A DNA stretch of 17,904 nucleotides from Thermus albus. GTDB taxonomy: Bacteria > Deinococcota > Deinococci > Deinococcales > Thermaceae. The notes under the pieces were generated by a model, which was given only the letters and a program-made list of their open reading frames with translations, made no database searches and had not been told where the DNA came from. Shown here in pieces: positions 1-5,758 of this stretch. Each line of letters begins with the position of its first letter. The stretch's first letter is position 1. The stretch covers positions 1-17,904 of the forward strand of contig NZ_JAKTNR010000018.1 in NCBI RefSeq assembly GCF_022760855.1, in the 5' to 3' direction. A program made the position numbers and the translations under genes.

Positions 1-14
1 CTTACAAGTAAAGC

Positions 15-1394
15 ATGAATCCTCCTAGGGTCCTCGGCTATGGCCTAGATACCCTCGTGGTCAATCTCTACTGGCCGGCGGGCAAGTATCAGCTTCCTGA
101 GGGTTTTGAGGCTACGCTAAATGAGTTAAAGGACCTATATAGGCGGGACCCTAATGGGGCCATCCTCTGGGGTGTGGATGCCTATTTTCCTCTCCCTAAT
201 CCCGTGCCTGATTTGCCTTGGGGTCTAGAAGGGGACCTCTTTGAGGCGGCTATAGTGCAGCCTACGCGTCATTATGCGTGGCAGTTGTCCTTTGGCGGTC
301 TTGTTTTCGTGCGCCTGAGTGCTGTGAAGGATACTACCCGGCGGGCGGAGTTCCCTGCCATGCGGGTAGAGTTCACCGGTACCTACATGCGGTATGCAGA
401 CCGGGACGCGGAAAAGGTAGTGCGGTGGGTGTTGGATGCTGCGGAGAATCTCACGGGCACCCGTCCGCATAGGGTTCAGGTGTCCCGGGCGGATTTGTTC
501 GTGGACGTGGAGGCTAATCCGCTTCAAGTGACGGATATAGACCGGTTTACTAGTCGCTCCAGGGTGCGGGGGGTGTACTCCTTCGGGGTGGACCCCGGCC
601 GCGAGGCCGGGGCCACCCCAGAAGGGGGGCTCATGAGTAACACGCCCCCTGCTACGCGACTACGGGTTGCGGATTCTCTGGCAGAAGGGGTAGAGACTAC
701 CGCGGCTTTTTTGCGAGGCCGGGACTGGTCGGGCTTTACGTTCGGGCGTGGTCCCTTGATGGCTCGCGTTTATTCAAAGACGGTGGAGGCACGTTCTAAG
801 TATGAGACGCGTAACCTCCTCATGATGTATGAGGAACGCCACGGGCCTTTGACTGGCCACGTTATCCGTGTGGAGTTTCAGCTAACTACTGACGTGCTGC
901 GGGAGATGGTAGTGGTGGGTGATGGGTCCGATATTCGTGATTGGGATACGTTCCGGTGGGCTATTCCTGCAATCTGGGCGTACTTGACAGGAGAATGGTT
1001 GGTGCTACGGGATAAAGCGCGGGTGGACGCATATAACCGTTTGCGGGATGTGCCTGTGGACCCTCTATGGCAAGTGGTCCAAGGGGCATTCAATGAAGGG
1101 GGTGATAGGGGAAAAGGGGAACTAGTACGGGATAGGGTGTTCAGGCGTGTGGATCCGGTGGCCCTCGCAAAACAAGCGTTGGGGGCCTTTATGACGGCTC
1201 TCGCGGCTGTGGGGCGCATTGACCGGGTGGACTTGAAGAGTTGGTGGATAGGAGCCTTTAGGGCGTTAGGAAGGGACAAGGAAGAACGGGAGTGGCTAGG
1301 TAGGGAAGGGGCACTTGCCTACGGGCGTGCACGGCTACGGAAGATGGCGGTTTTTGGCGTAATGCCGGAAAAGTGGCGCTTTGAGGGGGTGTAG
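15..1394 (+). CDS. Rolling-circle replication initiation protein (pII/RstA-like, Rep_trans-type)
   Basis: 459-aa ORF, first gene of the phage module. Motifs resemble the Rep_trans family as I recall it: N-terminal GLDTLVVNLYW, MRVEFTGTYMRY, VSRADLFVDVE (RxDxxxD) and ARVYSK (YdK-like catalytic Tyr motif). There is an in-frame TAA at 9-11, so the ORF cannot extend further left. No SD is visible in the 14 nt upstream. Confidence 0.75.
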   Translation: MNPPRVLGYGLDTLVVNLYWPAGKYQLPEGFEATLNELKDLYRRDPNGAILWGVDAYFPLPNPVPDLPWGLEGDLFEAAIVQPTRHYAWQLSFGGLVFVRLSAVKDTTRRAEFPAMRVEFTGTYMRYADRDAEKVVRWVLDAAENLTGTRPHRVQVSRADLFVDVEANPLQVTDIDRFTSRSRVRGVYSFGVDPGREAGATPEGGLMSNTPPATRLRVADSLAEGVETTAAFLRGRDWSGFTFGRGPLMARVYSKTVEARSKYETRNLLMMYEERHGPLTGHVIRVEFQLTTDVLREMVVVGDGSDIRDWDTFRWAIPAIWAYLTGEWLVLRDKARVDAYNRLRDVPVDPLWQVVQGAFNEGGDRGKGELVRDRVFRRVDPVALAKQALGAFMTALAAVGRIDRVDLKSWWIGAFRALGRDKEEREWLGREGALAYGRARLRKMAVFGVMPEKWRFEGV

Positions 1395-1395
1395 G

Positions 1396-1695
1396 ATGCA
1401 GATTCTGGTCTTGGGCGTGAACATTTTCCAGCGGAAGGATGGGACTCACGGGGCTCGGATTGTGGTGGCGTCTACTCCACGCAATCCCAATACGCGCGGA
1501 CTAGTGGCGGCGGAGTTCGAGGTTTTGCCGGAAGTGGCGGACACCATGAAGGTGTTTCCGGGCATTTACAAGCTGGATTTGGAGCTTCCCATTTCTACCG
1601 GGTACGGTCGGCCTAATGAGGTGCGTCCGTTAGTCACCGGAGCAACGTTGGTGGCTCCTGTGGTGCCGGGGAAGAAGGATGTTCCTGCCTCCTGA
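1396..1695 (+). CDS. Putative ssDNA-binding protein (pV-like), assigned by position and size
   Basis: The ATG at 1396 lies 1 nt after the rep stop and is preceded by GAGGGGG. It encodes 99 aa (MQILVLGVNIFQRKDG...). The size and the position directly after rep match inovirus gene V. I recognise no sequence motif. The track start at 1381 is a TTG with no better support. Confidence 0.45.
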   Translation: MQILVLGVNIFQRKDGTHGARIVVASTPRNPNTRGLVAAEFEVLPEVADTMKVFPGIYKLDLELPISTGYGRPNEVRPLVTGATLVAPVVPGKKDVPAS

Positions 1696-1771
1696 GGCAT
1701 GGCAAGCCTTTTTGGTGGTTGCATTTGGGTTAGGTGTGATTGCGGGGCTGCTATCGGGGGGTGACTGGTGA
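1679..1771 (+). CDS. 30-aa hydrophobic microprotein (pVII/pIX-like minor coat candidate)
   Basis: My own translation gives MFLPPEAWQAFLVVAFGLGVIAGLLSGGDW. It has one TM-length hydrophobic core, GGGGAAGAAGG just upstream of the ATG, and overlaps the 3' end of the preceding gene. It is below the ORF-track size cutoff. Confidence 0.4.
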   Translation: MFLPPEAWQAFLVVAFGLGVIAGLLSGGDW

Positions 1772-1875
1772 TGGATGCTTCCCAGTGGTTCACGTGGTTT
1801 CTCGCCATTACCACCATCCCATATGTCCTTCTAGCAGCCTATCGCTACTTGGGAAAACTCTATGGAGGGCTATGA
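1771..1875 (+). CDS. 34-aa hydrophobic microprotein (pVII/pIX-like minor coat candidate)
   Basis: My own translation gives MDASQWFTWFLAITTIPYVLLAAYRYLGKLYGGL. Its start overlaps the previous stop as TGATG (1769-1773), and the SD-like GGGGGGTGA lies 8 nt upstream. It has a single hydrophobic helix. Confidence 0.45.
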   Translation: MDASQWFTWFLAITTIPYVLLAAYRYLGKLYGGL

Positions 1876-1963
1876 TGTTCGGGAGCTGTTCGGGGCCTTT
1901 TGGTGGGGGGTCGCTGCCGGTGTTGTGGCTGCGTTCCTCCGTAACCTTCTTCGTCGGCTCTAG
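1862..1963 (+). CDS. 33-aa coat-like microprotein (acidic N-terminus, hydrophobic core, basic C-terminus)
   Basis: My own translation gives MEGYDVRELFGAFWWGVAAGVVAAFLRNLLRRL. The charge layout is typical of DNA-contacting filamentous coat proteins. The SD is weak (GGGAAAA), and the ORF overlaps the previous one by 14 nt. Confidence 0.35.
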   Translation: MEGYDVRELFGAFWWGVAAGVVAAFLRNLLRRL

Positions 1964-2013
1964 GGACAATCGGGGAATAATCCCCGTGATGGTCCAGAAA
2001 GGGGGTGAGTAGG

Positions 2014-2154
2014 GTGGAGTTCCAGCCGGATCAGATCGCGAGCGCTGTTCAGACCTACGTTACGGCTATCGCTGCTGCGGGTGCCGGGGTGTTGGCTCTA
2101 ACTATCGGCCTTTCCGCGGCCTGGCGGTACGCCAAGAAGTTCCTCAAGGGCTAG
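2014..2154 (+). CDS. Major coat protein (pVIII-like), 46 aa, no signal peptide
   Basis: GTG start preceded by AAAGGGGGTGA. The product is (M)EFQPDQIASAVQTYVTAIAAAGAGVLALTIGLSAAWRYAKKFLKG. It has the same length as, and is near-identical in its C-terminal two thirds to, the 46-residue PH75 coat protein as I remember it (...AIAAAGxGVLALxIGLSAAWxYAKxFLKG). It lies immediately upstream of the pIII-like gene. Confidence 0.85.
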   Translation: MEFQPDQIASAVQTYVTAIAAAGAGVLALTIGLSAAWRYAKKFLKG

Positions 2155-2156
2155 GT

Positions 2157-3851
2157 ATGAGCTTAGGGCGGTTCCTCCTGCTAGGGGTGGTCCTGCTAGG
2201 GGGGACCGCCCTGGCAAATGCTCAGTACAAGGATGCGGTGAAGGGTGCGGTCCAGGGCATGACCCTGGATGAGATTATTCAGTGGAGCAATGGCCAGTTC
2301 CGGCGGCAAGCCACCATTGGGCGCTATGTACGCTGGGGTGGTTCTATCGTGTTGGGTTCGGCCCTGATTGCTGCGGGCTTGGATTATTTTTATAACTACC
2401 TTCGGCGGGAAACCGGAACGCCCTTGGACCAGTGGTATTATTGGGTGCCTTCCGTTGTGGCTGGGATAGGGGGCTACTGGGCTAAAGTGGATATGTCGTG
2501 TTCGGGGAAGTGTAATTATCGGTGTCTATATGGGTACCAGTGGGCTGTTTATGGCTATAGGTTTCCTGGTGGTAAGGTCGGGGGTACGGAGTCTACTGGG
2601 ACGGGATGGTATGATAGTCCTCCGTCGTGTTCGGTAGATATGGCGGAATCGTGGGCGAAGTCTCATTTTAAGCAAATGATTGGTGCCCCTTATTCATCAT
2701 GGGAGTGGCGTACGGCTAGTGAAAGCTATAAGAATGGGGTGCCGGAAAGTGATAGGTCGCGCTTCGTATCCGATTTGAGCTGGTTACGTCATGTGCTGGT
2801 GGAGCCGGGTGCGCAGCCCGATTTGGTGACGTGGCTCCAGCAGCATCCTGACGCGGCCAATGGGGTAAAGCAGGCGGTTACCCAGTACCTAACTGATACC
2901 GAACCGTCTTCTCCTTCCCAGCCCTGGCCGGGGGTGCGCCTTGAGCCGGTGCCGAACCCTAACCAGTGGACCGATAACCCCTTCACGCGTCCGGACATAG
3001 ACACTGACGGTGATGGCTATCCGGATTCCGTGGAGTGGCAAGAGGCTAATCGGCGTGGTGTACCCTGGCCGGACGTTATCAATGACCCGACCGAGCACCC
3101 GGACCCCAATGGTGATCCGGACGGGGATGGATACCCAACGCTGGAAGAGGTGCAGGTAGGTACTGACCCCTATGACCCTGCAAGTAACCCAGGTCCTCGC
3201 CGTCGTCCGTGGATAGATACCGACGGGGACGGCTACCCAGATTGGCAGGAGGTACAAGAAGGCACGGATCCAAAGGATGCCTCTAGTAGGCCGCGGGTGG
3301 CACCTGCCCCTAACCCTAATCAGCCTTGGGTGGATACCGACGGGGACGGCTACCCAGATTGGCAGGAGATTAGCGAGGGGACGGACCCGAATGACCCGGA
3401 AAGCCGGCCTTCTGTTCCCCCGGCTCCGCGTCCTGAGGAGAATCCGGATAAGGTGGAGTGGCCGGGGGCTCCTCCTGCTCCCGGGTTGAAGCCGGTTGAG
3501 TGGCCTACGCGGAGTGAGGAGCGCAAGGCTTTGCCTGAGGTGGATAAGCTCATTCAGCCCTTTGAGGATAAGGTGCTTCAGCGTTGGAGGGATGGGGTAC
3601 GGGAGATAAGGGAGACGGCAGAACGCAAGTTCCCGTTTGGCATCATTGCGGTTATCAGGGGCATGAGCATTAGCCGGGAGGGTGGTAACTGTACGTTCAC
3701 CTTCTCCGTGGGTCCTGCACAGGGGACCGTGGCCCCGTGCAACACTCCCATATTTGCGGTGGCTGAATCCTTCCGGCCAGTCTGGGCGGGTTTGCTCTGG
3801 GTGGCATTTGCTCTTGCTCTCGTGCGGAGGGGGTTGGACATCCAGCGATGA
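2157..3851 (+). CDS. pIII-like minor coat / host-adsorption protein with TSP3-type Ca-binding repeats
   Basis: 564 aa. It has an N-terminal signal peptide (MSLGRFLLLGVVLLGGTALANA|Q) and a Cys-containing N-domain (CSGKCNYRC...PPSCS). Four D-x-D-x-DGDGYP motifs are separated by Pro-rich linkers. A C-terminal hydrophobic anchor (VWAGLLWVAFALALV-RRG) resembles the pIII C-domain. Its position between the major coat and pVI-like genes fits this call. Confidence 0.75.
   Translation: MSLGRFLLLGVVLLGGTALANAQYKDAVKGAVQGMTLDEIIQWSNGQFRRQATIGRYVRWGGSIVLGSALIAAGLDYFYNYLRRETGTPLDQWYYWVPSVVAGIGGYWAKVDMSCSGKCNYRCLYGYQWAVYGYRFPGGKVGGTESTGTGWYDSPPSCSVDMAESWAKSHFKQMIGAPYSSWEWRTASESYKNGVPESDRSRFVSDLSWLRHVLVEPGAQPDLVTWLQQHPDAANGVKQAVTQYLTDTEPSSPSQPWPGVRLEPVPNPNQWTDNPFTRPDIDTDGDGYPDSVEWQEANRRGVPWPDVINDPTEHPDPNGDPDGDGYPTLEEVQVGTDPYDPASNPGPRRRPWIDTDGDGYPDWQEVQEGTDPKDASSRPRVAPAPNPNQPWVDTDGDGYPDWQEISEGTDPNDPESRPSVPPAPRPEENPDKVEWPGAPPAPGLKPVEWPTRSEERKALPEVDKLIQPFEDKVLQRWRDGVREIRETAERKFPFGIIAVIRGMSISREGGNCTFTFSVGPAQGTVAPCNTPIFAVAESFRPVWAGLLWVAFALALVRRGLDIQR
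2994..3368 (+). repeat. Intragenic tandem repeats encoding DxDxDGDGYP(D/T) calcium-binding motifs
   Basis: Motif copies start at 2994, 3101, 3213 and 3330. The last two units include an exact 36-nt duplicate, gataccgacggggacggctacccagattggcaggag, at 3216-3251 and 3333-3368. The period is 117 nt (39 aa). Confidence 0.9.
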
Positions 3852-3916
3852 CGTGGGAAAACCGTCACAACCCCTTCCATTTCTCCCCTTCCGCCCCCTT
3901 AACTGCCTATTGCCTC

Positions 3917-4053
3917 GCCGCGGGGTGCCGTCAAGGGCGTCAGTCCCCGGGCCGCCCTCCATCACGCACGTTTACCGTGTTCAAGGACGGGGTTTGGACA
4001 TGCAGGGGCGGCCCGGGGATGCTCTGCACCCTTGACGGCGGGGTCCCCGCGGC
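3917..4053 (+). other. Long nested inverted repeat (about 137-nt imperfect hairpin) in the 253-nt pIII/pVI intergenic region; candidate ssDNA packaging signal or replication origin
   Basis: In the outer stem, gccgcgggg (3917-3925) pairs with ccccgcggc (4045-4053), and gccgtcaaggg (3927-3937) pairs with cccttgacggc (4029-4039). In the inner stem, tccccgggccgccc (3944-3957) pairs with gggcggcccgggga (4006-4019). This is the only sizeable non-coding stretch inside the phage module. A T-rich run, tttgttttt (4084-4092), follows. Confidence 0.5.
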
Positions 4054-4104
4054 AGGCACCCTGCTCACGGGGGGCGGAAGGGGTTTGTTTTTGGGGGGTG
4101 GCTC

Positions 4105-4542
4105 ATGGCTGGTGTGTCGGCAATAGTAGAAGGCCTTCTGGATCTCCTCCGGTGGCTGGCCCAAACTGCTATAGGCTTCTTCGGCTGGCTCTGGCAGACG
4201 GTCACCGGCTTCGCGCATTGGGTCTGGTCTGTCCTGGACTGGGTTTTCGTCCATGCGTGGAACCTCTTTATTGATGTTTTGGGCTGGGCGCTGGGTTTTG
4301 TTTTTGAGTTCGTCGGTTCGCTGCTGGTGCTGGTGCTCAAGTTTGTTCTGTTACTCGTCAGCCTTCTACCGGACGTTCCAAATGAGTTGCTGCGGGGTGT
4401 TTCGGCCATCGTTCCTGCTGCGGGTATCGCTGACCGTATCCTGCCCATTTCTGATGCGATTACTATCGTGTCGTTGTGGGGGTCGTTTTATGGCGTAATG
4501 GCGATTTGGCGTGTTATTACCTTCATCAGGGGAGGGCGTTGA
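4105..4542 (+). CDS. pVI-like multi-pass membrane minor coat protein, assigned by position and topology
   Basis: 145 aa with several long hydrophobic segments (e.g. AIGFFGWLWQTVTGF, WALGFVFEFVGSLLVLVLKFVLLLVSLL). GGGGGGTGG lies upstream of the ATG. Its stop overlaps the Zot start as TGATG (4540-4544), and the gene sits directly upstream of the pI/Zot gene, as in Ff phage. Confidence 0.55.
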   Translation: MAGVSAIVEGLLDLLRWLAQTAIGFFGWLWQTVTGFAHWVWSVLDWVFVHAWNLFIDVLGWALGFVFEFVGSLLVLVLKFVLLLVSLLPDVPNELLRGVSAIVPAAGIADRILPISDAITIVSLWGSFYGVMAIWRVITFIRGGR

Positions 4543-5474
4543 TGATTGAAGCTTTTGTGGGCATTCCGGGAAGTGGCAAGAGTTACGCCTTGGTGGTTAA
4601 AGGCCTCGAGGCTCTGGCTTCTGGTCGCATGGTCTACGCAAACTTTGGCTTACTCCCCGAACGGGTTTACCTTTGGCTGCGCCTACGTCGTCGCTTGTCT
4701 CATCGTGATGCTGTGGAACGTGCTGACCGAATCCGTGAAATACGGGACTACTCGGACCTGCTAAACGTTCATGATGGCGTGTTGCTCTTTGACGAGGCCC
4801 ACATGTGGCTTCCCTCCCGTGAGTTTAGTTTAATCCCCACGGAGGTTATAGCCTTTTGGAGCCAACACCGGAAGGTCGGTGTGGACGTCTACCTTGCTAC
4901 TCAACGCTATGGCTCCGTGGATGCCATCGTGAGGGAGTTAGTGGCGAATGTGTATTGGGCTCGTCCTGCTCCCTTTTGGCTCCGCCTTCTCCTCCGTCCG
5001 TGGGCTCGTGGTCGTCCAGTGCTCCGGTACACCGCTATTATGGATGAGTCTTTCGGGACTATGCAGAAGGCGGTTAAGGGCCTTTTTGAGGGGGTGCAGC
5101 GCAATAGCGTGGTTATTCTGGACCCGTTAGCGGCGTCCTGCTATGATACGCACGCTATCTTCGAGCCGCCTATTGTGCGCCTTCAAAGGGAGATGGACCC
5201 TAAACGGCGGGCGATTCTCGACCGTATGGGCCTTTCGTGGGATGCCTCGCGTATTCAAGGGCGTCGGGAGTCCGGTGATGGTTTGCCCGTTCTGTCTATG
5301 CGTGAGTTGGCCGAGGCCTATCGTTCTGGTAGGCCTCCCCATGCCGTGCTTAGGGAAAAGTGGTTAACTACTATGCATGACCCTTCTCCTTCTGACCCTC
5401 CTCAGTCTGATGCTGGCCGCGTATTACCTGAGGAAGAGGGCACAGACTGGACCGCGTTCGCATGGCGTGGCTAG
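4542..5474 (+). CDS. Zot / pI-family inovirus assembly (morphogenesis) ATPase
   Basis: The ATG at 4542 is preceded by GGAGGG (4531-4536). The N-terminus MIEAFVGIPGSGKSYALV is a Walker A motif in the typical Zot context, and LLFDEAH is a Walker B-like motif. The product is 310 aa. The track start at 4476 is unlikely because it lies inside the pVI-like gene with no RBS. No TM helix is present in this frame (see findings). Confidence 0.9.
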   Translation: MIEAFVGIPGSGKSYALVVKGLEALASGRMVYANFGLLPERVYLWLRLRRRLSHRDAVERADRIREIRDYSDLLNVHDGVLLFDEAHMWLPSREFSLIPTEVIAFWSQHRKVGVDVYLATQRYGSVDAIVRELVANVYWARPAPFWLRLLLRPWARGRPVLRYTAIMDESFGTMQKAVKGLFEGVQRNSVVILDPLAASCYDTHAIFEPPIVRLQREMDPKRRAILDRMGLSWDASRIQGRRESGDGLPVLSMRELAEAYRSGRPPHAVLREKWLTTMHDPSPSDPPQSDAGRVLPEEEGTDWTAFAWRG

Positions 5475-5604
5475 GTGTCCCAAGTGTGGCATGCCTCACC
5501 GGTTGGCCTTGCAGGTTAAGGAGTATAAGCGTCATTGCCCTTATGTGGCTTATGGTCAATGCCCGTATGACCCTCGCCGTGGGGTGTATCGTATGAGGCG
5601 TTAG
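5377..5604 (+). CDS. 75-aa predicted membrane protein with a Cys/His-rich tail, overlapping the Zot 3' end in the +1 frame
   Basis: MTLLLLTLLSLMLAAYYL-RKR is a TM helix followed by positive residues. It is followed by CPKCG...HCPY...C, a zinc-ribbon-like spacing. This frame opens only at 5368, after a TAA at 5365-5367. No convincing SD is present. Confidence 0.4.
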   Translation: MTLLLLTLLSLMLAAYYLRKRAQTGPRSHGVARCPKCGMPHRLALQVKEYKRHCPYVAYGQCPYDPRRGVYRMRR

Positions 5605-5617
5605 GTTATACTGGCTT

Positions 5618-5746
5618 GGGGCGGGCGTGTTGTCGGGTAGACTTTTGGCCCTTTGTGGTCGTGCCTTAGACTGGCCATTACCCCTAGCGTGGTTAGTGTT
5701 GGCCCATTGTGGTCGTTTGTAAGAGTGCTGAAGGGGTGCCCGCCCC
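5618..5746 (+). ncRNA. Candidate IS110-type bridge (guide) RNA in the recombinase leader
   Basis: A perfect 9-bp GC stem (ggggcgggc at 5618-5626 with gcccgcccc at 5738-5746) encloses two copies of an 18-nt repeat. Each copy can form a GGCC/GGUC hairpin, and each is flanked by 9-10-nt segments. Segment 5662-5671 is the reverse complement of 6728-6737, segment 5691-5699 is identical to 6721-6729, and segment 5717-5723 is the reverse complement of window positions 1-7. A TATACT -10-like hexamer at 5607-5612 would place a TSS near 5618-5620. No ORF is present. Confidence 0.45.
5645..5716 (+). repeat. Two copies of an 18-nt direct repeat, TTGGCCC(T/A)TTGTGGTCGT
   Basis: The copies lie at 5645-5662 and 5699-5716 and are 17/18 identical. 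The single difference falls in the predicted 6-nt hairpin loop (ctttgt versus cattgt). A third partial TGGCCA unit lies at 5672-5677. Confidence 0.9.
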
Positions 5747-5758
5747 TACTTGTTGCCT

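What the first reader, a model, noticed from the sequence alone, without database searches (positions are those of the whole stretch)
5607..5758. The recombinase leader has the layout of a programmable bridge RNA, and its guide-like segments match the insertion junctions
**Architecture seen in the sequence**
- A 9-bp perfect stem (5618-5626 with 5738-5746) encloses a symmetric layout: g1 (5636-5644, ggtagactt), hairpin repeat A1, g2 (5662-5671, tgccttagac), a 19-nt spacer, g3 (5691-5699, ggttagtgt), hairpin repeat A2, g4 (5717-5725, ttgtaagag).

**Matches to the junctions**
- g3 is identical to 6721-6729. These are the last 9 nt of the low-GC insert.
- g2 is the reverse complement of 6728-6737. 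These are the first host bases, including the A of the host ATG.
- The two matches read opposite strands and overlap on the dinucleotide GT at 6728-6729, exactly at the compositional boundary.
- g4 is the reverse complement of window positions 1-7 (cttacaa). That match is cut off by the window edge.

**Chance estimate**
- A single 9-mer match between a 150-nt and a 60-nt region on both strands is expected about 0.07 times. Two abutting matches on opposite strands sharing a core are far less likely.

**Established background**
- In IS621-type IS110 elements the non-coding left end encodes a bridge RNA with a 5' target-binding loop and a 3' donor-binding loop. Each loop carries two guides that read opposite strands on either side of a core dinucleotide.

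**Inference**
- g1/g2 specify a host attB of roughly GGTAGAC-(T/G)T-CTAAGGCA.
- g3/g4 specify the circular-element junction GGTTAGT-GT-CTTACAA.
- The window therefore shows the hybrid attR, and the element half of attL begins at position 1.
Basis: partly seen in the sequence, partly recalled or inferred. Interest (0 to 1): 0.9.

Follow-up and report, generated by a model that had tools for sequence, protein, structure and literature searches.

The report
Bridge RNA guiding filamentous phage integration
A filamentous-phage prophage in Thermus albus carries, just before its IS110-type recombinase gene, a roughly 127-nt bridge RNA whose four guide segments spell out the phage ends and the host insertion site, so this virus appears to choose where it integrates with an RNA rather than with a protein.

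Summary

- **What the insert is.** Window 1-6731 is a complete prophage of a Thermus filamentous phage (phiOH16/Zuza type). Its last gene is a 305-aa homologue of the IS621 bridge recombinase.
- **The RNA.** Positions 5619-5745 fold into an outer stem plus two 10x10 internal loops, each capped by a UGGCC..GGUCG hairpin. The fold recurs in 19 related elements with compensatory changes.
- **Guides track junctions.**
  - The guides differ between elements and match each element's own sites: the right junction in 11 integrated copies and the circular junction in 3 isolated phages.
  - The left junction matches well in 3 copies. It is irregular or weak in 2 others.
- **Empty site.** The uninterrupted site in two related Thermus reads GGTAGACT-(C/T)T-(T/A)AGGCA. 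This is what guides g1 and g2 predict.
  - The crossover core is CT (6730-6731 and 1-2), not GT. The GT overlap is the handshake guide known from IS621.
  - The predicted host site is one base too long.
- **What is new.** Thermus filamentous phages with IS110 transposases were already described. I found no paper linking a bridge RNA to them.
- **Not shown.** RNA expression and activity are untested.

The parts
1..6731 (+). Complete filamentous (inovirus) prophage of the Thermus phiOH16/Zuza type. Genes II, V, VIII, III, VI and I/Zot, a small Cys-rich ORF, the bridge RNA and the recombinase all lie on the + strand.
   Evidence: Pfam finds Zot and TSP3 repeats. Every ORF matches phiOH16, phiOH3, Zuza8 and Zuza27 in the same order at 40-72% amino-acid identity. 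G+C steps up near 6700-6800.
1..8 (+). Left end of the prophage: core CT (1-2) plus right donor half-site RD TACAAG (3-8). On the circle, RD doubles as a -10-like box for gene II, whose ATG is at 15.
   Evidence: The reverse complement of RDG is CTCTTACAAA. The free phage phiOH16 has ...GTAGT-CT-TACAAT 17 nt before gene II. The contig starts exactly at the core.
5607..5612 (+). TATACT, a -10-like box 6 nt before the outer stem. It is a possible promoter of the bridge RNA (inferred).
   Evidence: A TAnnnT box (TAGAAT, TAATAT, TAAGAT...) sits 6-8 nt upstream of the stem in all 17 relatives. No -35 was found. In most relatives the box overlaps a stop codon.
5619..5745 (+). Bridge RNA, about 127 nt, as delimited by the covariance model.
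   Evidence: Model R1 scores 117 bits, E 4e-28, and this is its only hit in the window. Consensus fold. Covariation.
5618..5626 (+). Outer stem, 5' arm. It pairs with 5738-5746.
   Evidence: Perfect 9 bp. All 8 modelled pairs show changes on both sides among relatives.
5636..5645 (+). Left target guide (LTG) GGTAGACTTT, in the same sense as the host top strand.
   Evidence: It matches 10 of 10 bases in the empty site of T. scotoductus (L399) and 9 of 10 in an uncultured Thermus (L398), immediately left of the right half-site.
5646..5661 (+). Capping hairpin of the target-binding loop (UGGCC..GGUCG).
   Evidence: Five pairs are kept in 18 of 18 sequences, including invariant G.U pairs.
5662..5671 (+). 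Right target guide (RTG) TGCCTT, then AG (core complement), then AC (handshake guide).
   Evidence: It is the reverse complement of 6728-6737. AG is invariant in 16 of 16 and AC is present in 14 of 16 relatives.
5690..5699 (+). Left donor guide (LDG) TGGTTAGTGT.
   Evidence: Nine of ten bases are identical to 6720-6729. The same relation holds in 12 of 12 relatives that have a donor site.
5700..5715 (+). Capping hairpin of the donor-binding loop.
5716..5725 (+). Right donor guide (RDG) TTTGTA, then AG (core complement), then AG (handshake position).
   Evidence: Its reverse complement CTCTTACAAA matches window 1-7. The handshake complement CT equals the last two bases of the left target half in the empty sites.
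5738..5746 (+). Outer stem, 3' arm.
5759..6676 (+). IS110-family DEDD/serine bridge recombinase, 305 aa.
   Evidence: Pfam PF01548 and PF02371. E 4e-34 to IS621 (8wt6) and 3e-36 to ISCro4 (9t56) over the full length. E47, D89, D92 and S233 are invariant in 28 homologues, and D6 aligns with the catalytic Asp of ISCro4.
6708..6713 (+). TTGACA, a -35 box in the right end. On the circle it lies 18 nt before TACAAG (window 3-8), so the promoter is split by integration (inferred).
   Evidence: CTTGACA is conserved at this place in all relatives. IS621 reconstitutes a promoter across its RE-LE junction (PMC11208160).
6720..6737 (+). Right junction: left donor half GGGTTAGTGT (6720-6729), core CT (6730-6731), right target half AAGGCA (6732-6737). 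The last base is the A of the host ATG.
   Evidence: It matches the RNA-derived prediction at 17 of 18 positions. An independent assembly of the same run ends exactly at ...GTGTCT.

Best explanation
Window 1-6731 is a filamentous-phage prophage that integrates with an IS110-type bridge recombinase (5759-6676) guided by a phage-encoded bridge RNA (about 5619-5745).

**How the RNA is built.**
- It folds into an outer stem that encloses two internal loops.
- In the 5' loop, LTG (same sense as the host top strand) and RTG (complementary to it) recognise the host site GGTAGACT-CT-AAGGCA. That site lies just upstream of a phosphoglucomutase-like gene.
- In the 3' loop, LDG and RDG recognise the joined phage ends GGTTAGTGT-CT-TACAAG on the circular replicative form.

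**How it works.** The recombinase exchanges strands at the shared CT core. The products are LT-CT-RD at the left end (window position 1) and LD-CT-RT at the right end (6720-6737). The two 3'-terminal bases of RTG (AC) pair with the phage GT next to the core after strand exchange. This is the handshake described for IS621.

**Shown here.** The conserved fold with covariation, the homology of the protein, the matching of guides to junctions across many elements, and the empty site.

**Inferred.** That the structure acts as a transcribed RNA, that recombination happens at CT, and that a promoter split by integration (TTGACA in the right end, TACAAG in the left end) controls gene II.
For: **1. Fold.**
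- RNAalifold on 9 relatives gives the two-loop architecture.
- On 18 sequences, 92% of cells are paired and 16 of 32 pairs have compensatory changes. No shuffle of 500 reached these values, and slid controls gave 35-51%.
- Six G.U pairs are invariant, so the fold exists on the + strand only.

**2. Protein.** It is a full-length homologue of IS621 and ISCro4 with the catalytic Asp/Glu/Asp/Asp and Ser residues aligned or invariant.

**3. Guides match this element's junction.** The right junction matches the prediction at 17 of 18 positions, against 13 of 18 for the next best place.

**4. Guides vary and track the sites.**
- There are 15 distinct target-loop guide pairs among 16 elements.
- Across 9 integrated loci, the hexamer to the right of the core matches that locus's own RTG at 46 of 54 positions. 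Permuted pairings average 21.2, and only 1 of 100,000 permutations reached the observed value.

**5. Free phages.** The circular genomes of phiOH16, Zuza8 and Zuza27 carry LDG-CT-RD at 16-17 of 18 positions between the recombinase gene and gene II. In two of them the site is on the opposite strand.

**6. Empty sites.** Two related Thermus read GGTAGACTCT|TAGGCATG and GGTAGACTTT|AAGGCATG. LTG matches 9 and 10 of 10 bases.

**7. Assembly breakpoints.** The deposited contig starts at CT-TACAAG. A Logan contig from run SRR18336085 ends at ...GTGT-CT. This is expected if reads from the integrated form and from a joined RE-LE junction coexist.

**8. phiOH3.** This viable phage has an 838-nt deletion that removes the donor loop and most of the recombinase gene (PMC4763002). 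The structure is therefore not needed for replication or packaging.

**9. L076.** In this Thermaceae element the recombinase gene is inverted. The RNA still follows Zot and its guides still match the junction GTGGGGTAT-CT-ACCCCG.
Against: - **No transcript data.** Only a -10-like box lies upstream, and the sigma-70 scan finds no promoter there.
- **Single-sequence folding is unremarkable.** The z-score is -1.2.
- **No curated model was available.** Rfam gives no hit, but it also gives none on 15 unrelated IS110 loci.
- **The left junction of this prophage is not in the data.** The host site is inferred from relatives with 98% and 84% identical flanking protein. These differ from each other at the core (CT or TT) and at the first base of the right half.
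- **The LTG register is uncertain by one base.** In 13 of 16 relatives the core C is LTG position 10. In the window, L162 and L083 it appears to be position 9.
- **Two left junctions are irregular.**
  - L162 has 3-4 extra bases.
  - In L401 the left host half matches its LTG at only about 5 of 9 bases.
- **The covariation alignment was fitted to the model.** This favours the structure.
Confidence: 0.85

Rival explanations
1. The structure acts as folded single-stranded DNA of the phage + strand, for example a minus-strand origin, a packaging signal or a folded attachment site as in CTX phage. It is not a transcribed guide RNA.
For: - Filamentous phages carry functional hairpins in their single-stranded genome.
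- The fold is strand-specific (G.U or G.T pairs).
- It lies on the coding strand, which is presumably the packaged one. That assumption rests on my own knowledge of Ff phages.
- No transcript has been shown.
Against: - phiOH3 lacks the donor-loop half and still replicates, packages and forms plaques (PMC4763002).
- The loops carry host half-sites that differ from phage to phage and match each insertion site. An origin or packaging signal has no reason to do this.
- The real attachment site lies elsewhere, between the recombinase gene and gene II.
- The partner enzyme is a homologue of RNA-guided recombinases.
Confidence: 0.04
2. The repeated 16-18-nt units and their flanks are DNA binding sites (iterons or arm-type sites) for the recombinase or a regulator. 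Their resemblance to the ends would reflect DNA-level duplication of end sequences.
For: - There are two near-identical units.
- Copies of end sequences inside an element are common in transposons.
Against: - Compensatory changes keep six helices paired, including the 9-bp outer stem 110 nt apart. DNA binding sites do not require that.
- The 5' guides are in the same sense as the sites and the 3' guides are complementary to them.
- Two of the four segments copy host sequence, not element ends, and change with the insertion site.
Confidence: 0.03
3. The region is only a structured 5' leader that controls translation of the recombinase. The matches to the junctions would be incidental.
For: - It lies directly upstream of the start codon, and no Shine-Dalgarno sequence is evident.
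- A U-rich tract follows the outer stem in many relatives.
Against: - In L076 the recombinase gene is inverted while the structure keeps its place and orientation after Zot. It is therefore not tied to the mRNA leader.
- The junction matches are far beyond chance across loci.
- A leader role is not exclusive. In IS621 the bridge RNA also precedes the gene.
Confidence: 0.03

Closest known systems
IS621 / IS110-group bridge RNA and bridge recombinase (Durrant et al. 2024, PMC11208160; Hiraizumi et al. 2024, PMC11208158)
   Same: - The recombinase is a DEDD plus serine enzyme (E 4e-34 to IS621).
- The RNA lies upstream of the gene.
- The target loop is 5' and the donor loop is 3'.
- LTG and LDG are in the same sense as the top strand. 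RTG and RDG are complementary to it.
- The core is CT.
- A two-base handshake guide lies 3' of RTG and pairs with the donor bases next to the core.
- A -35 box sits in the short right end.
   Different: - **Size and cargo.** The element is a 6.7-kb virus genome, not a 1.2-1.6-kb insertion sequence.
- **Position.** The RNA lies 5.6 kb from the donor junction. The junction promoter would therefore drive the phage replication gene, not the RNA directly.
- **RNA form.** It is shorter (about 127 nt against 177 nt), has no separate 5' stem-loop, and has symmetric 10x10 loops with near-identical caps.
- **Guide lengths.** LDG covers 9-10 bases left of the core but not the core itself. RTG covers 6 bases plus the core, against 4 in IS621.
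- **Host.** It is a thermophile.
Thermus filamentous phages phiOH16, Zuza8 and Zuza27 and their proviruses (PMC11437467; phiOH3, PMC4763002)
   Same: They have the same gene order and 40-72% protein identity. The paper already notes the IS110-family transposase gene, and proviruses with the endonuclease gene at one end and the transposase gene at the other.
   Different: The papers infer integration by the transposase, by analogy with Neisseria Nf phages. They do not mention a guide RNA, the attachment sites or the core. Here those are identified, also in the published genomes themselves.
Neisseria Nf / MDA filamentous prophages with an IS110-type (piv/irg) transposase (Kawai et al. 2005, as cited in PMC4763002 and PMC11437467)
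   Same: They are filamentous phages that integrate with their own IS110-family enzyme. The module order Zot, non-coding stretch, transposase, replication gene is also seen in saliva inoviruses with a TspB-like protein.
   Different: The recombinases are about 30% identical. Whether those phages carry a bridge RNA was only glanced at here.
IS1111-group seekRNA / bridge RNA
   Same: It belongs to the same recombinase family and uses RNA-guided site choice.
   Different: In that group the RNA lies downstream of the gene in a long right end, and the ends carry long subterminal inverted repeats (PMC11208160). Here the RNA is upstream and the right end is 53 nt.
CTX-phage type integration by host XerCD
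   Same: It is a filamentous phage that integrates at a specific chromosomal site.
   Different: It uses host tyrosine recombinases and a folded single-stranded attachment site. There is no phage-encoded enzyme or guide.

Membership tests
IS110-group bridge RNA system (IS621 type) | Recombinase with a RuvC-like DEDD domain and a Tnp domain with a catalytic serine | tested here: met
   PF01548 and PF02371. Full-length alignment to IS621 and ISCro4 chains. E47, D89, D92 and S233 are invariant in 28 homologues, and D6 aligns.
IS110-group bridge RNA system (IS621 type) | Non-coding RNA with two internal loops, each carrying a 5' and a 3' guide around a capping stem-loop | tested here: met
   Consensus fold. 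Covariation with 16 of 32 pairs compensatory and 0 of 500 shuffles reaching the observed values.
IS110-group bridge RNA system (IS621 type) | The 5' loop guides match the target. LTG has the sense of the top strand and RTG is complementary. | tested here: met
   - **Empty sites.** L398 and L399.
- **RT hexamers.** They track RTG in 9 loci.
- **Left junctions that match.** L083, L375 and L285.
- **Irregular cases.** L162 and L401.
IS110-group bridge RNA system (IS621 type) | The 3' loop guides match the joined ends of the circular element | tested here: met
   Free circular genomes of phiOH16, Zuza8 and Zuza27 match at 16-17 of 18 positions. For the window itself the two halves are at 6720-6731 and 1-8.
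IS110-group bridge RNA system (IS621 type) | Conserved CT core at both boundaries, covered by the guides | tested here: met
   CT is present at every junction. AG is invariant in all RTG and RDG. LTG covers the core, with C at position 10 in 13 of 16. LDG stops just before it, which departs from IS621.
IS110-group bridge RNA system (IS621 type) | Handshake guides that pair with the non-cognate DNA after strand exchange | tested here: inconclusive
   - **Target loop.** AC is present in 14 of 16 and is complementary to the invariant donor GT.
- **Donor loop.** Its complement fits the left target half in the window's empty sites (CT) and perhaps in L162. It does not fit in L083 or L375.
IS110-group bridge RNA system (IS621 type) | A promoter rebuilt across the RE-LE junction drives the bridge RNA | tested here: not met
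   A conserved TTGACA lies in the right end, and a -10-like box lies in the left end or in the inverted donor half. The RNA, however, is 5.6 kb downstream, behind all the phage genes. A separate -10-like box precedes it.
IS110-group bridge RNA system (IS621 type) | The RNA is expressed, binds the recombinase and is required for recombination | not testable with these tools
   No expression or biochemical data are available here.
IS110-family insertion sequence (ISfinder sense) | Compact element of about 1.2-1.6 kb that encodes only the recombinase | tested here: not met
   The element is 6731 bp and carries a full set of filamentous-phage genes.
Thermus filamentous phages (Thomixvirus-like) | Gene order II-V-VII-IX-VIII-III-VI-I with homologous proteins | tested here: met
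   tblastn of every window ORF against phiOH16, phiOH3, Zuza8 and Zuza27. Annotation of those records.

The most novel reading that the evidence does not exclude
A lineage of viruses uses an RNA-guided bridge recombinase as its integrase.
- **Specificity in RNA.** Both attachment sites are written in two loops of a phage RNA.
- **Natural retargeting.** The target loop has been retargeted to at least 15 different host sites.
- **Flexible layout.** The system works with the phage site in either orientation and with the recombinase gene on either strand.
- **Lysogeny control.** Integration splits the promoter of the replication gene. This would silence the prophage without a repressor.
- **Excision.** A 2026 preprint reports that IS621 excises mainly a single-stranded circle (10.64898/2026.08.31.748434). 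If that applies here, the prophage could release single-stranded genome copies directly while staying in place.
Probability: 0.5. Interest if true: 0.85.

Novelty: new variant of a known kind. Interest (0 to 1): 0.72.

Why it matters
**Biology.** As far as the searched literature shows, bridge RNAs have been described only in insertion sequences that carry nothing but their own recombinase. Here the same machinery moves a whole virus.
- It would explain how these phages, and perhaps other filamentous phages with IS110-type enzymes, pick their insertion sites and switch them by a few base changes.
- It offers a natural series of guide and site pairs to study.

**Practical use.** This is a compact bridge system from a thermophile: a 305-aa enzyme and an RNA of about 127 nt, with a natural 6.7-kb cargo. 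Culturable phage-host pairs exist (Zuza8, Zuza27 and phiOH16 on Thermus thermophilus), so the predictions can be tested directly.

Tried and rejected
- **Rfam.** No hit at gathering or at E up to 10. There was also none on 15 unrelated IS110 loci, so the negative result says nothing.
- **Single-sequence folding.** The minimum-energy fold is not better than shuffles (z -1.2). It does not show the target loop, whose base stem is weak in this element.
- **Promoter scan.** No promoter was found upstream of the RNA.
- **Exact-protein look-ups.** They failed for the window's 308-aa and 298-aa ORFs, for gene II, and for P0005 and P0016.
- **Left flank of T. albus.** I tried to reach the contig that holds it through the neighbouring UvrD-like helicase. 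No T. albus entry appeared among the cluster representatives.
- **DNA pattern scans.**
  - A strict pattern filter over all fetched loci left 26 matching loci.
- **Symmetric GT-core model.** I considered a model with GT as core and 8-nt right guides. It was rejected because it predicts an 18-nt host site, while the empty sites have 16 nt.
- **Model R1 on other IS110 loci.** It does not detect RNAs next to 30-40% identical IS110 genes. The exception is a marginal hit before a Truepera gene.
Full report
**1. The observation.**
  - The stem 5618-5626 / 5738-5746 is a perfect 9 bp.
  - g3 (GGTTAGTGT) has one other exact copy in the window, at 6721-6729.
  - The reverse complement of g2 has one copy, at 6728-6737.
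  - The reverse complement of g4 (CTCTTACAA) fits the first seven bases of the window.
- G+C rises from about 0.57-0.60 to 0.66-0.68 near 6700-6800.
- The 18-mer built from the RNA (10-nt left donor guide plus the reverse complement of the right target guide from the core onward) matches 6720-6737 at 17 of 18. The next best place in the window has 13 of 18.

**2. What the insert is.**
- The window is essentially a whole contig of Thermus albus (17,906 bases).
- Positions 1-6731 are a filamentous prophage.
  - Pfam finds Zot in 4476-5474 and TSP3 repeats in the large 2157-3851 protein.
  - Every ORF matches the Thermus filamentous phages phiOH16, phiOH3, Zuza8 and Zuza27 in the same order at 40-72% amino-acid identity.
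- The last gene (5759-6676, 305 aa) is an IS110-family enzyme.
  - It aligns over its full length with the IS621 (E 4e-34) and ISCro4 (E 3e-36) bridge recombinases of the Protein Data Bank.
  - E47, D89, D92 and S233 are invariant in 28 homologues, and D6 aligns with the catalytic Asp.
- A 2024 paper already reports that phiOH16, Zuza8 and Zuza27 carry an IS110-family transposase gene.
  - It also reports proviruses in Thermus genomes, and infers integration by analogy with Neisseria Nf phages (PMC11437467).
  - It does not mention an RNA or the attachment sites.

**3. The structure is conserved and covaries.**
- The same layout lies upstream of the recombinase gene in relatives with 54-79% identical enzymes.
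- RNAalifold on nine of them returns three elements.
  - An outer stem.
  - A first internal loop of 10 + 10 unpaired bases, capped by UGGCC..GGUCG.
  - A second loop of the same form.
- A covariance model built from these (R1) finds one hit in the window (5619-5745, 117 bits). It finds the RNA in 18 further loci.
- On the 18-sequence alignment:
  - 92% of cells pair.
  - 16 of 32 pairs have changes on both sides.
  - No shuffle of 500 reaches the observed values.
  - Sliding the partners drops pairing to 35-51%.
  - All eight outer-stem pairs show compensatory changes.
  - Six G.U pairs are invariant, so the fold exists only on the + strand.
- Two caveats apply. That alignment was fitted to the model. 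The single-sequence fold of the window is not better than shuffles (z -1.2).

**4. The guides vary and follow the sites.**
- I took the 10 bases before and after each cap as LTG, RTG, LDG and RDG. On that basis 16 elements have 15 different target-loop pairs.
- **Right junctions.**
  - In nine integrated loci the site LDG-CT lies just past the recombinase gene, or next to gene II in the inverted type.
  - The six bases that follow match that locus's own RTG at 46 of 54 positions.
  - Permuted pairings average 21.2, and only 1 of 100,000 permutations reaches 46.
  - L401 and the more distant L076 add two more right junctions.
- **Free phages.** The three isolated phages have circular genomes. 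They carry LDG-CT-RD at 16-17 of 18 positions between the recombinase gene and gene II.
  - In phiOH16 the site is on the coding strand.
  - In Zuza8 and Zuza27 it is on the opposite strand.
  - The integrated Zuza-like copies (L285, L375, L401) have their junctions swapped accordingly.
- **Left junctions.**
  - They fit LTG in L083 (GGGATAGT-CT-TACAC), L375 (GGGGTAAG-CT-CACAAC) and L285 (one base short).
  - L162 has 3-4 extra bases between the LTG match and the phage end.
  - In L401 the left host half matches at only about 5 of 9 bases, while its right half and donor half fit.
  - A 2026 preprint reports that IS621 can insert at sites matching only half of the RNA (10.64898/2026.08.31.748434). 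This may apply to L401.

**5. The empty site.**
- The host gene to the right of the insert is a 298-aa phosphoglucomutase-like protein.
- Its 98% identical homologue in an uncultured Thermus (L398) and its 84% identical homologue in T. scotoductus (L399) have no prophage.
- Their upstream sequences read ...GGGGTAGACTCTTAGGCATG and ...GGGGTAGACTTTAAGGCATG.
- The window's LTG, GGTAGACTTT, matches 9 and 10 of 10 bases exactly at the position predicted. Chance for at least 9 of 10 at a fixed place is about 3e-5.
- The host site is thus GGTAGACT-(C/T)T-(T/A)AGGCA.

**6. The core is CT, and GT is the handshake.**
- All 16 RTG and all 16 RDG carry AG at positions 7-8, the complement of CT. Every junction and every free-phage site has CT there.
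- IS110 elements have conserved CT cores at both boundaries (PMC13626964).
- Fourteen of 16 RTG end in AC. This is complementary to the GT that ends the left donor half in all 16.
- In IS621, the two bases 3' of RTG are handshake guides. They pair with the donor bases next to the core after top-strand exchange (PMC11208158).
  - The donor-loop handshake (AG, complement CT) fits the last two bases of the left target half in the empty sites. It does not fit in L083 or L375, so that feature is only partly supported.
- LDG ends just before the core, which differs from IS621.
- In 13 of 16 relatives the core C is LTG position 10 and the core T is the first U of the cap. In the window, L162 and L083 the core seems to sit one base earlier.

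**7. Assembly breakpoints.**
- The deposited contig begins at CT-TACAAG.
- An independent Logan assembly of run SRR18336085 yields a contig that ends at ...GGTTAGTGTCT.
- Both breaks sit at the core. A de Bruijn graph would branch there if reads from the integrated form and from a joined RE-LE junction coexist. Such a junction could come from a circle or from a tandem copy.
- This is indirect evidence, because I could not read the raw data.

**8. Is it RNA?** No transcript data are available. Three arguments favour an RNA.
- **phiOH3.** It is phiOH16 with an 838-nt deletion that starts right after the target loop and removes the donor loop and about 80% of the recombinase gene. It is nevertheless a viable, plaque-forming phage (PMC4763002). 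The structure is therefore not an origin or a packaging signal.
- **L076.** This is a Thermaceae element whose enzyme is 39% identical and whose cap sequences differ.
  - Its recombinase gene is inverted.
  - The structure still follows Zot on the phage strand.
  - Its guides still fit the junction GTGGGGTAT-CT-ACCCCG.
  - So it is not merely an mRNA leader.
- **Upstream box.**
  - A TAnnnT box lies 6-8 nt before the outer stem in all 17 relatives.
  - In the window it is kept (TATACT, 5607-5612) although the upstream stop codon has moved off it.
  - No -35 was found.

**9. A split promoter (inferred).**
- CTTGACA is conserved in the right end (window 6708-6713).
- On the circle it lies 18 nt before TACAAG (TACAAT in phiOH16), and gene II starts 6-11 nt further on.
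- In the inverted type the -10-like box (TACCGT or TACCAT) lies in the donor half next to gene II.
- Integration therefore separates the -35 from the -10 of the replication gene.
- IS621 rebuilds a promoter across its junction too, but there it drives the bridge RNA (PMC11208160).

**10. Comparison and novelty.**
- It works like an IS621-type bridge system and meets most defining features.
- It is not an insertion sequence in the usual sense. The RNA is separated from the donor junction by the whole phage genome.
- Four full-text searches found no paper that connects bridge RNAs with filamentous phages.
- Rfam has no model that detects this or other IS110 RNAs.
- I rate it a new variant of a known kind.

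**Verdict.**
- The finding is real, and its interpretation is essentially right after the two corrections.
- I put the bridge-RNA explanation at 0.85.

Noticed in passing
window 6720-6740; L398 5980-6003; L399 2980-3003: The host site lies between a -10-like TAGACT and the ATG of the phosphoglucomutase-like gene, only 7-8 nt upstream of the start codon. The insertion therefore cuts the gene off from its likely promoter, possibly of a leaderless mRNA. The phage right end puts TAGTGT in the same place.
   Followed up: partly
window 5377-5604: A small ORF of 75 aa has a hydrophobic N-terminus and Cys motifs (CPKC...HCPY...CPYDPRRGVYRMRR). It is 73-77% identical in Zuza8 and Zuza27, was not found in phiOH16 or phiOH3, and has no Pfam hit. 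It ends just before the bridge RNA. Its function is unknown.
   Followed up: partly
L400 (phiOH3) compared with L168 (phiOH16): phiOH3 is a deletion derivative. 838 nt are missing, from the middle of the bridge RNA to near the 3' end of the recombinase gene. The target loop, the last 49 or so codons and the attachment site remain.
   Followed up: yes
L076 9992-11020 and 12303-11278: This Thermaceae filamentous element has a convergent arrangement: Zot, then the bridge-like RNA on the same strand, then the IS110 gene on the opposite strand, overlapping the 3' end of the RNA. The caps are GAGCC..GCTCG and GGGCC..GCCCG. The guides fit the junction.
   Followed up: partly
L166 945-962 and L167 945-962 (minus strand): In Zuza8 and Zuza27 the attachment site is inverted relative to the RNA and the recombinase gene, unlike in phiOH16 and the window. 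Integrated relatives (L285, L375, L401) have the donor-left junction next to gene II.
   Followed up: yes
L162 3679-3700: The left junction of the Thermus sp. PS18 prophage reads GTACACTTT-AGGT-TACAAG, with 3-4 bases that the simple model does not predict. AG equals the handshake complement of that element's RDG. This is unexplained.
   Followed up: partly
L404 1146-1400 and 2365-2480; L403: Saliva inoviruses with a TspB-like protein (Neisseria Nf-like) have the same module order: Zot, non-coding stretch, IS110 gene, replication gene. In L404, TTGACA-N17-TATATT spans ACAGTAT-CT-TGTAT just after the recombinase gene. AACAGTATC followed by a hairpin lies just before the gene. This hints at a bridge RNA there too.
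   Followed up: partly
L060 9827-9914: Model R1 gives a marginal hit (18.5 bits, E 0.12) directly upstream of an ordinary multi-copy IS110 gene in a Truepera genome.
   Followed up: no
window 1-6700: There is strong positive GC skew and negative AT skew on the + strand across the whole prophage, with all genes on that strand. The skew stops at the junction.
   Followed up: no
window 6737-7633: The host gene is annotated as phosphoglucomutase. It has only domains I and II (298 aa). This short form is conserved across Thermus, so it is not a truncation caused by the phage.
   Followed up: partly
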